Assembly: GCA_951406725.2 (NCBI GenBank)
Contig: OX597815.1
Coordinates: 142,786,001-142,850,000, forward strand
From: Octopus vulgaris
Lineage: Eukaryota
Length of the DNA stretch: 64,000 nt
Direction: 5' to 3'
Shown in pieces: positions 30,884 to 62,390 of the stretch. The notes under the pieces were generated by a model. That model was not told the origin of the DNA. It saw nothing but the letters and a program-made list of their open reading frames with translations, and ran no database searches. The stretch's first letter is position 1. The number at the start of each line of letters is the position of its first letter. The position numbers and the translations under genes were made by a program.

Positions 30884-31606
30884 ATGAATGGAGTCAAACG
30901 AAGATGTTAACAAAATTCCTTTACTCTCGACATATGTTTCGAAGACAACATGTTTTCATTCCAAAGGAATAAAGGGTGCATTATGCAGTCTTCTCATCAG
31001 GAAAGAAAGGGAGCCTCTCTCGACAAAAAGACAAACAAAAAATTTCGATGACTGCCTACATGGTAAACAAAGCGATAATGAGTGTTTTTTTTAAAAAAAC
31101 CGTTAGAAGAATTGACGTCAAAGATAGATAGTAGGAAGAGAAGGGTTAAAGGAATAATAGGTAGGGAACAAGTGGAGAGGGAAGGGTACGTTGATTGAAA
31201 GAAGGCTTAGGAAAGAATTTCTCTATAGAAGTGGGGTGGACGTAAAGCTAATTGTTCAAACCACAGTGACTATCGTTATCATTTATATGAGTAGAATGTG
31301 TGTTTCTGCCAGTGTTTACTTTTGTATGATTTTTCTATGAATGTGTTTACTAGGGGAACCTTAGAGAAAAGAATATGGAAGAGTTCAGAGTTAACTCTGA
31401 ACTCTTTTTTTGTTAACATCTTCATTCGACTCCATTCTTTCATTTATTCATATACAACACACAAATTTCTGCACATGAACCCGGAGTTTCTACCCTTGAC
31501 AGGTCGCTTCAACCGTGTTTCTGACGTGAATTTGCTCCCTAGGTTTCGGTTAAACGAATTTTCCATGCTGACGATAAACATAGGATAATTCATTCACCTA
31601 CTTAAA
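30884..31606 (-). mobile_element. ~0.72 kb non-coding hammerhead-bearing element flanked by (TA)n (copy 1)
   Basis: Co-linear with 61731-62390 from one end to the other. No credible ORF. Confidence 0.75.
30918..31010 (-). ncRNA. type I hammerhead ribozyme with extended stem II
   Basis: Minus strand reads ctttc CTGATGA gaagac...gtcttc GAAA catatg TC gagag, giving a GUC triplet and a palindromic stem III. Confidence 0.85.
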
Positions 31607-33363
31607 TATATATATATATATATATATATTCAGTTAACATATTTTCTCGCTCTGCAACGCTCCTGGTATAATTTTGCATGCGTAATTGACATTGTTTACG
31701 GTAATTACGAAGTAACAATTTTAATAATGTTACTTCCTCAGTTTTAAATTATATAATTTTACTATGAACAACAAGGATATTTCTATATAAACATGTATGC
31801 AAATATGTGTATGTATATGTGCATTGATATATTGTGTTTAAGTAGTCTCTAAGTGACGAAGAGAAATATGTTAGAGTATTATCAATAACTGTAACGTTGC
31901 TTTTCATATTTTATTGAAAACTGTAGCTTCACAAAGCGTTCCTTTGGTCAGTTTCTCCTCTCCGTTCTTGAGACGATTTTGAAACGCGGAACATAAGAAA
32001 TATAATGGAAAGAAAACACTTTAAAATGCTTAGAGAACTATACACGAGAGGGAGGTGAGAGATTTGCCGTTTAGAGAAGAAAGAATACACATGTTGCAAA
32101 AGCGTAAGGAAGGAAACAATTGGTGTGTGTGTGTATACGTGTGTTTGTGTGTTTGTGTGTTTGTGTATGTGTGTGTGTGCGCGCGTACTTACACACGTGA
32201 TTGCTTCAGTAGTAAGTAATGCAGTTTTTGTTTGCATTACTTTTTAACTATCTTCGTATTTATGAGGAGGTGCCTGTATCTTTATATGTGAGCGCTCGTG
32301 TGTGTGTATATCTCTTTGTGCCTGTGTCTGTCCGTGTGTATGGGTGTTTATGTATATGTTTGTATTGGGAAATATATAATACATGCATAAAAGATAGAGA
32401 AAAGAAAAAAACAGCCGTAAAAAATGGTGAAATTTAATTATTAAACTCATAAAGGAAATGGAGAAAATATGTAAATTTAAATTATTATAACCCTAATGTA
32501 CAAATAAAATAATACTAAAAATGAGGAATCAATAAAATTTTCTTAAAGTGTGGCGGTGAAATGGTTACGCATGTACGGAAAATAGAATTGTTTGTTGCTC
32601 TTTTTTACCGTGGAGATTATTCGTGAAGCAATAAATAGCTGCCAACAAATATTTAGCATGGTATGAACAGGTTGCTTTTCATTTGAATCTTACGCTTGAC
32701 GTCCGATAGTCTTAGACACAGTTTACACCAAATTTTCGAATGCAAGATTCTAAGATTTTGAGCTACTGGATATTCTATGCTCTGCGATATCGTAAATAAT
32801 TCGTTTAACAATCAGATATGCATGGGCAAATTGACAGGAAAAAAAACAATTGTTAGGAGCAATAGAATTATGTGCAAATTTACCAGTGTTGATCTAATAA
32901 ACTGCGGAAGCGAAAATTTTGAAGCAAAAATAGCAAAATTATATTAATCTTATCAATACCTAAAGATAGTTAAGTTCTGCTAGAAAAAAGTAAATGGAGA
33001 GAAATCGAGAGAACTCTGGGATTCTGGTTAAACTTTGACTTGATTTCTACCCTAAGATATTTCTTTGTCACCTCTTTCCATTTGGACACTAGGCCAGATT
33101 ACATACGTACGTACATACAGACACACACACAAACACAAACAATCAAACATATATATATATATATATATATATATATATATATATATATATATATATATGT
33201 ATATATGTATATATATACATAAATATACATATACATATATATACATATATATATGTATATATATGTATATATATTAAACTATGAATATAATAGACCTTAC
33301 TGCTCGTATTTTTGACCTCGTGTTAAGATATGGCGTGCAGTTCGATAAATTATATTTTTGACG

Positions 33364-33443
33364 GACTCCACTGATGATCCGCAAATTAATTGTGTAAGTA
33401 AAAATTGAATAAGTTATTAACAGTGAAACAGTTGTATGGGGTT
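33364..33443 (+). ncRNA. type I hammerhead ribozyme motif, stem II poorly paired
   Basis: gactcca CTGATGA [~45 nt] GAAA cagttg TA tggggtt: 7 bp stem I with wobbles. It lies in a ~300 bp island between (TA)n tracts. Confidence 0.65.
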
Positions 33444-60574: not shown

Positions 60575-60730
60575 GGAGAAGAAGACGAAGAAGAAGAAGA
60601 AGACGAAGAAGAAGAAGAAGAAGAAGAAGAAGAAGAAGAAGAAGAAGAAGAAGAAGAAGAAGAAGAAGAAGAAGAAGAAGAAGAAGAAGAAGAAGAAGAA
60701 GAAGAAGAAGAAGAAGAAGAAGAAGAAGAA
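60575..60730. repeat. (GAA)n microsatellite
   Basis: Direct reading of the sequence. Confidence 0.97.
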
Positions 60731-61730
60731 ATATTTAGTGAACATTCAGATCGTTACTGTCCATTTTTCATAGTTTTGTAAAAGGAGAAATGTTGTTTTT
60801 TTTTCATATATTTTTATCATATCTATTTATTGTACCGTCTGTATTGTTTCTTGATAGTTTAACAGACTGTATATCAGAACAAAATAAACCAACTGCACCG
60901 TAAAGGAATATCATTTGGCTGTATTCTGTCTTCTAAATTTATTTCACCTTACCCAGAGCAGAGCAATGATGCATAACGTTACCCGGAGAATAATGGCATG
61001 TCTGTACATGGATACGATGTTGCTAATTCTATCTCGCATCATGGAAACCATCTCTGCATCAATACGATCATTCACGGTTTCTTATTATATTTACCCAAAC
61101 TAGTAAGGGAATATCACAGTGACTGTCAGTTAATAGCGATGTGTCATCGTCGTAATACCAATGTGTTATAGTGATGTGCAAAAATGATAGGCGACAGTGG
61201 TGCGTAGGTTGGTGCCTAGGAGTAATGTATAAAAGGGTTTTGTAGATGTGGTGTATAACAGACGTTTGTAGGAGCAGTGTTTAGTAGTGGTGTCTAAGAC
61301 TGATGTATTAGAGCGTCGAGACAGGCATGTTGTGTATAAGAGTCTAATGATTTTTATGGAGGTTGGAATCCGGGGACTTTGGTCAAAATACATATGAGTC
61401 TAAGTTTGTGGTATTTTCTGACAAGTGTCGAGTGTGGGTGTGGAGTTTTATCAAAATTGATAGAAAGTACTTTTAGGCTGTTCGGAGTTTGACTCGACAT
61501 GTATTGATCAAGATTCTAAAAGTAGTGTCCTTGAGTCGGTGATTAATTTCAGAGAGATTTGAACCTGGAAGTTCCCCTAACGTTGGACTATTTACGAAAA
61601 GGATAATCCTTTCGTGTAACTATGCGTTTAATACTTCCCGCATATGTAAAAGTGTAAAATGCTATTTATCCATTTCCACAAATATATATATATATATATA
61701 TATATATATATATATATATATATATATATA

Positions 61731-62390
61731 AAGTATAGGAAAGAATGGAGCTGAACGAAGATTTAACAAAATTCCTTTATTTTATTTTCGACATGTTTCG
61801 AAGTCTGCAAAGTCCCTAATTCCGAGTGAATAAGGAGTCCATTATGCAGCTTTCTCTTCAGGAAAATCCAGGAACTTAATTCTCCAACAAAATTCACAAC
61901 AAGCTTTTCGACGACTGCTCACGAGGAGCCCATAAAGATAATGATAAATAATGTCTATTTATAGGGGGTGACGCCAGATTGGTTGAAAGCAGGAGAAATT
62001 GTCCGTTGACATAGTTCAAGGGCAGAATCAAGGTAGGAGAAGGAAGGTATAGGAAAATTAATGTTAGTGAATGTATTCTGTATGACTGGTGTTTATATTT
62101 GATTAATTTTATGAATGAGTGCTCGAATGTATGAGTGTGTAAAATTGCCTTAATGTGTGTGTGTGTGTGCGTCTTTGAATGCGTGAAAGTGTGTGTGGAA
62201 GGCAGAGAGAGAGAGATAGCAAGAATTAACGGTCAAGAACTGAAAAGACTGAGTCTGTGTGTTCGAATGTGTCAACTTAATACCCTATGGTCGTAACTTC
62301 AACCGTGCCTTTTCTGTTGTGAGTTTGCTACCCAGGTATCGATTATCTTTCGAATTATCCGTAATAAGATAATTCATTTGTCTACTTAAA
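61731..62390 (-). mobile_element. ~0.66 kb non-coding hammerhead-bearing element flanked by (TA)n (copy 2)
   Basis: Shares with 30884-31606: gaatggag..aacgaagat.ttaacaaaattccttta, ttcga.gactgc, cttcaaccgtg and gataattcatt..ctacttaaa. Confidence 0.75.
61784..61867 (-). ncRNA. type I hammerhead ribozyme with extended stem II
   Basis: Minus strand reads attttc CTGAAGA gaa-ag-ctgca...tgcag-ac-ttc GAAA catg TC gaaaat: perfect 6 bp stem I and a GUC triplet. Confidence 0.88.

What the first reader, a model, noticed from the sequence alone, without database searches (positions are those of the whole stretch)
30884..62390. A discrete ~0.7 kb non-coding, hammerhead-carrying element family inserted in (TA)n (copies at 30884-31606 and 61731-62390)
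Seen: two diverged copies 31 kb apart are co-linear end to end, share both termini, have no ORF, and are flanked by (TA)n on both sides. Each carries a minus-strand type I hammerhead ~35-50 nt from its 3' end. The folds differ in sequence yet stay paired: stem I is ctttc/gagag vs attttc/gaaaat, stem III is catatg vs catg (both palindromes), the core is CUGAUGA vs CUGAAGA, both triplets are GUC, and both have a long stem II. Known: PLE pLTRs and non-autonomous retrozymes carry hammerheads. Inference: this is a retrozyme-like or non-autonomous PLE family with defined ends and a structurally conserved ribozyme, mobilised by the PLE RT/GIY-YIG machinery seen in this window. It may not be annotated in cephalopods.
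Basis: partly seen in the sequence, partly recalled or inferred. Interest (0 to 1): 0.75.

Follow-up and report, generated by a model that had tools for sequence, protein, structure and literature searches.

The report
Truncated Penelope ends with long tail
The two 'elements' are not a new non-coding family but the broken-off ends of two related protein-coding Penelope-type jumping genes, each pasted head-to-head into a TA repeat; what is mildly unusual is a 155-base tail found on exactly one end of nearly every insertion and the loss of a zinc-finger motif that was proposed to aim such elements at TA repeats.

Summary
The hammerhead motifs and (TA)n flanks are real; the 'discrete non-coding element' is not. 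Genome hits of both copies break at the same internal points and run on, with ragged 5' truncation, into a single RT plus GIY-YIG-type ORF (29 of 29 family-A and 21 of 29 family-B loci; an intact 900-codon copy exists). Each window copy is a head-to-head pair: a truncated 3' end carrying the hammerhead on the minus strand, plus an inverted piece of the element's 5' 'tail' on the plus strand. That shared footprint, not a shared ancestor of 0.7 kb, makes the copies look co-linear; their middles do not align. The proteins nest among Hydra-type Penelope-like elements (already reported in Octopus). Three variant features: the tail is about 155 nt (30-40 in print), 44 of 46 two-ended insertions carry one short and one long end, and the linker CxCX5C motif is lost (0 of 72 linkers) while 162 of 177 ends still abut (TA)n. 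The scan reported this Penelope footprint before on other DNA of this genome.

The parts
30700..30877 (.). (TA)n-rich array flanking the short end of insertion A
30878..31393 (-). Insertion A, main arm: 5'-truncated 3' end of a family-A PLE (end of EN ORF, ~400-nt 3' UTR, hammerhead), ending at the fixed 'short' end; exact end blurs into TA
30924..31005 (-). Type I hammerhead motif of family A; CUGAUGA 30994-31000, GUC 30929-30931, predicted cut between 30929 and 30928
   Evidence: activity untested
31279..31395 (-). Last 38 codons and stop codon of the RT-EN ORF (C-terminus of the GIY-YIG-type domain)
   Evidence: tblastn E 6.5e-9, translation
31379..31406 (.). Perfect 28-nt palindrome at the head-to-head junction of insertion A
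   Evidence: not present in other copies checked
31408..31606 (+). Insertion A, inverted arm: last ~45 nt of the 3' UTR plus the ~155-nt tail, ending at the fixed 'long' end; lacks the hammerhead
31607..31629 (.). (TA)n flanking the long end of insertion A
61682..61730 (.). (TA)n flanking the short end of insertion B
61731..62282 (-). Insertion B, main arm: last ~552 nt of the ~720-nt 3' UTR of a family-B PLE, ending at the short end
61784..61867 (-). Type I hammerhead motif of family B; CUGAAGA 61855-61861, GUC 61790-61792; this copy has a 2-nt shorter stem III than most of its family
   Evidence: activity untested
62277..62390 (+). Insertion B, inverted arm: last 114 nt of the ~155-nt tail, ending at the long end; overlaps the main arm by up to 6 nt
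62390..62424 (.). (TA)n flanking the long end of insertion B

Best explanation
Each 'copy' is a separate, 5'-truncated, head-to-head insertion of a protein-coding Penelope-like retroelement (families A and B), likely made when the element's own reverse transcriptase-endonuclease cut both strands of a TA repeat and copied its RNA from two fixed start points. Shown: the full unit reads 5' tail (~155 nt) - ~50 nt - ATG - 900-codon RT-EN ORF - 400 or 720-nt 3' UTR with a type I hammerhead, and occurs in partial tandems so that the UTR is followed by the tail. Shown: insertions end at one of two places, about 50-60 nt ('short') or 205-215 nt ('long') downstream of the hammerhead cut site, and the two arms of one insertion nearly always use one of each. 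Inferred: the two nicked TA strands each prime cDNA on an RNA that spans the UTR-tail junction, one at each site, in a coupled (probably dimeric) complex; the cDNAs stop at random lengths and are joined by microhomology or fold-back. Inferred: since both start points lie 3' of the cut site and the copies carry the whole hammerhead, the template was uncut or re-ligated there, so the ribozyme would act at another stage (trimming tandem transcripts, as a dimer or with protein help).
For: Hits break at query 510 (A) and 552 (B), the rest matching in the opposite orientation. 29 of 29 other A loci extend past the stop codon, lengths 522 to >2000 nt; 21 of 29 other B loci extend >100 nt into the ORF, 490 to >2000 nt (one of them is the reference copy, two share one tandem). 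Uninterrupted ORFs of 891-934 codons in 5 of 11 loci chosen for long frames. UTR-hammerhead-tail-ATG continuity in 13 tandem junctions listed. Of 262 de-duplicated matches, 177 end at the short (90) or long (87) site. 49 divergent pairs under 4.5 kb: 44 short+long, 2 short+short, 0 long+long, 3 short+end within tail (dropped); 44 of 46, binomial p 1.5e-11 against 50:50. Contigs of other sequencing runs show loose ends going into (TA)n at the same two places 155 nt apart (L122:1808 and 1963; long end listed in 7 of 8 runs, short end in 5 of 8, lists truncated). Two internal RT start sites that define the tail, nicking and extension of both strands, a predicted dimer and no need for hammerhead cleavage were shown in vitro for the anole element PAc (PMC11167929). 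Junction palindromes and microhomology are described for PLEs (PMC3846280).
Against: No biochemical test here. In PAc the RT start site did not differ between top and bottom strand, so the coupling of short and long ends is not explained by that system. Loci are best hits of searches, not a random sample, and pairs were limited to those inside fetched stretches; some may be duplicates. Pfam gave no RT or GIY-YIG hit for four ORF pieces; the domain calls rest on motifs and on alignment to homologs. The single-sequence fold of the EN domain was unusable (pLDDT 37). 2 short+short pairs exist. Craig et al. ascribe the tail to EN-mediated resolution instead.
Confidence: 0.82

Rival explanations
1. 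Same elements, different mechanism: one cDNA is primed at the long site, the second arm arises by fold-back or template switch, and the endonuclease then trims the second end at the short site (EN-mediated resolution).
For: Explains one tail per insertion without two priming events; perfect 28-nt palindrome at the A junction; proposed in PMC8557442 and, as self-priming on an antisense template, in PMC3846280.
Against: In PAc both tail boundaries are RT start sites in vitro. The long end sits on either the longer or the shorter arm, and in both window copies the long arm is the short fragment; in copy B it does not even reach the short site, so the main arm cannot be a fold-back copy of it.
Confidence: 0.12
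2. One reading: a discrete ~0.7-kb non-coding, non-autonomous (retrozyme-like) family with defined ends, moved in trans.
For: Similar size and homologous termini in the two window copies; L002 has nearly the same layout as copy A; non-autonomous PLE derivatives and retrozymes exist.
Against: L002's junction differs from copy A's, so it is an independent event; no fetched locus repeats either window junction; continuous spread of truncation lengths; the two halves are in opposite orientation and only one has a hammerhead; copy A holds ORF codons; middles of A and B do not align.
Confidence: 0.04
3. The (TA)n flanks are not pre-existing targets but were added or expanded during or after insertion (telomerase-like addition or slippage), which would make the lost zinc finger irrelevant to targeting.
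For: Both element ends finish in TA-compatible bases; PLE RTs are telomerase relatives; 15 of 177 ends lack (TA)n.
Against: (TA)n arrays are abundant in this genome anyway; no empty sites were examined, so untested.
Confidence: 0.15

Closest known systems
Hydra clade of C-terminal EN+ Penelope-like elements, e.g. Hydra-1_Obim of Octopus bimaculoides, Hydra-2_Amil (Craig et al. 2021, PMC8557442: section 11 whole, passages, supplement parts 2 and 54 and search hits in Fig. S7)
   Same: Single RT-EN ORF; RT motif 3-4 pattern (FDI..FYPSI ... ARKS ... FDV.MGS.D), DKT, CxxC and CxH around the conserved E and N, sense-strand type I hammerhead near the 3' end with short palindromic stem III, (TA)n insertion, inverted 5'-truncated copies. 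Compared by eye with the printed alignments.
   Different: Different family from Hydra-1_Obim (other N-terminus, hammerhead with 8-nt loop II there versus ~55-nt stem II here). Linker CxCX5C lost and replaced by an Asn/Ser-rich stretch; RWK reads RWL/RWF; unit about 3.3-3.7 kb versus generally under 3 kb; long branch in the tree.
Poseidon_Ac (PAc) of Anolis carolinensis (Frangieh et al. 2024, PMC11167929: parts 1-2 of 4 of the text)
   Same: Tail between two fixed ends downstream of the hammerhead; AT-rich target; hammerhead carried intact into copies.
   Different: Tail 30-40 nt and inside the ORF start in PAc; here ~155 nt and wholly upstream of the ATG. Other clade. No short+long pairing count in the parts read.
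Pen2a_Av and related Adineta vaga Penelope elements (Arkhipova et al. 2013, PMC3846280: passages)
   Same: Inverted pLTRs with tail on one end, palindromes at inverted junctions, microhomology joins, Asn-rich insert between RT and EN.
   Different: 31-bp tail, target-site duplications visible, low copy number.
Animal non-LTR retrozymes (bioRxiv 10.64898/2026.07.22.740005: part 1 of 5; PMC7229834: search listing only)
   Same: Type I hammerhead, PLE ancestry.
   Different: Retrozymes are non-coding head-to-tail tandems with a hammerhead in each unit; these are ends of coding elements, head-to-head, one hammerhead per window insertion.

Membership tests
EN+ Penelope-like elements | One ORF with RT and C-terminal GIY-YIG endonuclease | tested here: met
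   900-codon ORF in L198 with YRDD and IYQC..YIGA..R..H..E..N motifs, aligned to homologs; Pfam silent on four pieces
EN+ Penelope-like elements | Partial tandems forming pLTRs; 5' truncation; inverted 5'-truncated copy | tested here: met
EN+ Penelope-like elements | [quoted passage not shown] | tested here: met
   Present on one end in 44 of 46 pairs, but ~155 nt long
EN+ Penelope-like elements | Type I hammerhead in the pLTR | tested here: met
   Both core halves intact in 133 of 156 distinct sequences; 6 of 25 pairs with two-sided change, 2 of 500 shuffles as high; no Rfam hit; cleavage untested
EN+ Penelope-like elements | Retained spliceosomal intron in the 5' UTR (Penelope, Chlamys-3) | tested here: inconclusive
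   A 68-77-nt GT..AG candidate spanning the long end is seen in 10 of 13 tandem junctions listed; no spliced joint in 4 guessed-RNA contig sets
Hydra clade PLEs | DKT instead of DKG; RWK motif near the N-terminus | tested here: inconclusive
   DKT present; RWK reads RWL/RWF
Hydra clade PLEs | CxxC and CxH flanking the conserved E and N of EN; no CCHH | tested here: met
Hydra clade PLEs | CxCX5C motif in the RT-EN linker | tested here: not met
   0 of 72 distinct linkers of this lineage; 80 of 99 full-length homologs have it. Filed therefore as a derived relative, not a typical member
Hydra clade PLEs | Insertion into (TA)n | tested here: met
   162 of 177 ends versus 1004 of 20000 random positions in the same loci
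Hydra clade PLEs | Phylogenetic grouping with named Hydra RTs | tested here: inconclusive
   Quick tree of 47 rows nests A and B (SH-aLRT 99) among unnamed homologs of the CxCX5C type; named references could not be entered, compared by eye only
Non-LTR retrozymes | Non-coding unit unconnected to an ORF | tested here: not met
Non-LTR retrozymes | Head-to-tail tandem units each with a hammerhead | tested here: not met
   Window insertions are head-to-head with one hammerhead; tandems found are of ORF-bearing units
Non-LTR retrozymes | Abundant circular RNA of unit length | not testable with these tools
   Only assembled contigs of runs guessed to be RNA were available

The most novel reading that the evidence does not exclude
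A high-copy, recently active Hydra-derived lineage in an octopus genome that targets (TA)n without the linker zinc finger and primes its two arms from two sites 155 nt apart in a strictly coupled way, i.e. PLE integration is an asymmetric two-primer reaction (one short, one long end per event) whose TA preference lies in the nuclease core or in RNA-DNA pairing rather than the zinc finger. The long tail and an intact 900-codon ORF would make this directly testable.
Probability: 0.4. Interest if true: 0.55.

Novelty: new variant of a known kind. Interest (0 to 1): 0.3.

Why it matters
As flagged (a new non-coding ribozyme element) it does not matter: it is the standard footprint of a Penelope-like element. 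The residual value is mechanistic. How PLEs make inverted ends and a one-sided tail is an open question; a tail four to five times the usual length makes the two ends easy to score, and the 44 of 46 pairing argues that the two ends of one insertion are coupled. The linker zinc finger was hypothesised to drive (TA)n targeting (PMC8557442); this lineage is a natural counter-example if the TA arrays pre-date the insertions.

Tried and rejected
Rfam scans: whole window gave only microsatellite-driven miRNA matches among the 150 rows shown; the two motifs gave no hammerhead hit. Free folding does not single out the hammerhead; the constrained monomer fold costs 2.2 (A) and 7.1 (B) kcal/mol over the minimum, and RNAalifold preferred another weak fold. 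Pfam found nothing in four ORF pieces. Single-sequence AlphaFold of the EN domain was unusable; no fold search was run. Expression: no RNA holder on record was listed; contigs of four guessed-RNA runs cover UTR, hammerhead and tail, but show no spliced joint, no circular joint and cannot show cut ends; no inference drawn. First guess of clade Nematis (recalled motif) was dropped after the printed alignments matched Hydra. Re-amplification of the composite (L002) rejected: different junction. The careful tree did not finish; the quick tree is cited. Scan look-ups by sequence and by words returned nothing. Literature searches showed no report of a ~155-nt tail, a short+long count or a zinc-finger-less Hydra family, but Repbase, Dfam, Arkhipova 2006 and the repeat library behind PMC13282606 (passages only; supplements not opened) were not seen and may already hold these families.
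Full report
Observation. Both stretches lie between (TA)n arrays and carry a minus-strand type I hammerhead motif as described. Their similarity is confined to the ends: 75% over the first 130 nt and 68% over the last 106 nt; the middle 430-500 nt have no significant match (best E 0.09). 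Copy A contains, at 31408-31454, the reverse complement of its own left end and a perfect 28-nt palindrome at 31379-31406, the first sign that it is composite. Rfam does not recognise either motif and neither folds better than shuffles.

Genome context. The window lies in a 2.8-Gb assembly; the closest named protein, 88% identical, is labelled Octopus sinensis, so the host is inferred to be an octopus. Searches with each copy gave 4050 and 3083 first-look candidates, 40 scored each (not copy numbers). Apart from the window itself and one locus (L002), hits to A stop at or before query position 510 and hits to B at or before 552; the remaining part of each query matches separately, in the opposite orientation and beyond the other end. 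In those loci the sequence continues past the window's break point into a coding region: 29 of 29 other A loci extend beyond the stop codon with lengths from 522 to over 2000 nt, and 21 of 29 other B loci extend over 100 nt into the ORF, lengths 490 to over 2000 nt (one is the reference copy, two share one tandem). L002, which mimics copy A's layout, has a different junction. Copy A itself holds the last 38 codons of the ORF.

The element. Walking upstream gave full units. In partial tandems the order is 3' UTR, hammerhead, short end, tail, long end, about 50 nt, ATG (13 junctions listed; cut site to ATG 255-264 nt). Uninterrupted frames of 891-934 codons were found in 5 of 11 loci picked for long frames; L198 has ATG to stop, 900 codons. 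The 3' UTR is about 400 nt in A and 720 nt in B. The protein has a YRDD RT core and a C-terminal IYQC..YIGA..R..H nuclease with CxxC and CxH; 470 homologs at E<=0.001 among 7997 scored, best full-length ones 38% identical. Pfam found nothing in four pieces. By eye the RT motifs, DKT, CxxC/CxH, hammerhead type and (TA)n preference match the Hydra clade of Craig et al. 2021 (PMC8557442; section 11; supplement), which includes Hydra-1_Obim from Octopus bimaculoides, a different family. A quick tree nests A and B, on a long branch, among unnamed homologs of that type.

Why the two copies look alike. Ends are not ragged on the outside: of 262 de-duplicated matches to the UTR-tail-ORF junction, 90 end at the short site and 87 at the long site, 34 run on into the ORF, 21 end elsewhere and 30 cover ORF only. 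The two sites are 155-156 nt apart in both families, and contigs of other sequencing runs show loose ends going into (TA)n at the same two places. Among 49 head-to-head pairs under 4.5 kb, 44 have one short and one long end, 2 are short+short, none long+long, and 3 have a short end plus an end inside the tail (dropped): 44 of 46, p 1.5e-11 against 50:50, on a best-hit sample. Both window copies are such pairs, with a long main arm ending short and a small inverted arm ending long. Two related families using the same two ends give the false impression of one 0.7-kb element with shared termini. [quoted passage not shown] A third insertion in this window (7851-13181), of a family that keeps the zinc finger, has the same layout with a tail of about 66-68 nt, so tail length varies by family.

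Hammerhead. Both core halves are intact in 133 of 156 distinct sequences; triplets are GUC 107, GUA 27, other 5; stem III is CATATG in 101 of 139 and CATG, as in window copy B, in only 4. On 18 representatives, 90% of cells pair, 6 of 25 pairs change on both sides (2 of 500 shuffles as high; shuffles ignore relatedness, so this is modest support), with clear swaps in stem I (U-A/C-G) and stem II (A-U/G-C). An alternative hairpin that buries CUGANGA also shows two-sided changes. The short palindromic stem III fits the dimeric, weakly active PLE hammerheads of PMC4209133 (part 1 of 4 read). Cleavage was not tested.

Mechanism. Both ends lie downstream of the predicted cut, and copies carry the whole motif, so the template spanned the site uncut or re-ligated (inference). 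In the anole element PAc, RT starts at two internal sites that bound the tail, both target strands are nicked and extended, a dimer is predicted and hammerhead mutants still insert (PMC11167929). I take the same route as most likely, adding coupling of the two sites to explain the pairing; against it, PAc showed no strand difference in start site. The rival is one priming event followed by fold-back and nuclease trimming. Copy B argues against simple fold-back, as its long arm never reaches the short site.

Zinc finger. The CxCX5C linker motif is in 80 of 99 full-length homologs but 0 of 72 distinct linkers of this lineage, where an Asn/Ser-rich stretch stands. Yet 162 of 177 ends abut (TA)n against 5% of random positions in the same loci. 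The linker motif was hypothesised to mediate that bias. Whether the arrays pre-date insertion was not tested. Because this defining feature is not met, I file the lineage as an EN+ PLE and a derived relative of Hydra rather than a typical member.

Earlier notes of this scan describe the same footprint, and two fixed start points, for other families in this genome; they agree but are not evidence. Interest 0.3.

Noticed in passing
window 7851-13181 (sense +): Young insertion (40 scored hits at 99-100% identity) of another Hydra-type family that keeps CxCX5C; hammerhead-like motif near 13120-13165 and its inverted copy near 7935-7980, tail about 66-68 nt on the left end only, and a multi-kb 3' region of mixed TA/TG repeats shared between copies.
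   Followed up: partly
window 15175-16716 (-): Decayed internal fragment of a third subfamily of the A/B lineage, about 70% DNA identity to both.
   Followed up: partly
window 38373-40196 (+): Frameshifted PLE of another clade (Pfam RVT_1 and GIY-YIG hits, CxxxxCxxC before the nuclease; Neptune-like by recall), only 23% identical to the Hydra-type set.
   Followed up: partly
L117-L119 (G000:C20:23328000-23357999): Array of about eight full-length family-A-related units in tandem and inverted orientation over 27 kb, a possible source locus type.
   Followed up: partly
L122:1896-1973 and equivalents; window 31540-31606 holds its 5' part: GT..AG candidate intron of 68-77 nt in the 5' UTR spanning the long end, close to the 75-bp intron of Drosophila Penelope; no spliced contig seen.
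   Followed up: partly
window 30988-31006 (-) and family equivalents: Alternative hairpin pairing the 5' strand of stem I with the start of stem II, burying CUGANGA; shows two-sided changes between subfamilies, a possible off-state.
   Followed up: no
P0001, P0006: Database proteins named 'myb-like protein I' and 'GATA zinc finger domain-containing protein 14-like' are pieces of these retroelement ORFs, i.e. misannotated.
   Followed up: no
window 7267-7659, 35872-36818, 62502-62966, 29139-29378: Several long palindromes or inverted repeats; a hammerhead-like motif sits at about 7465 (-) in the first.
   Followed up: no
window 14070-14810, 21679-22044, 22355-22651, 26704-27063, 28271-29155: Fragments resembling LINE RTs, a mariner-type and a piggyBac-type transposase (names by recall from the translations).
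   Followed up: no
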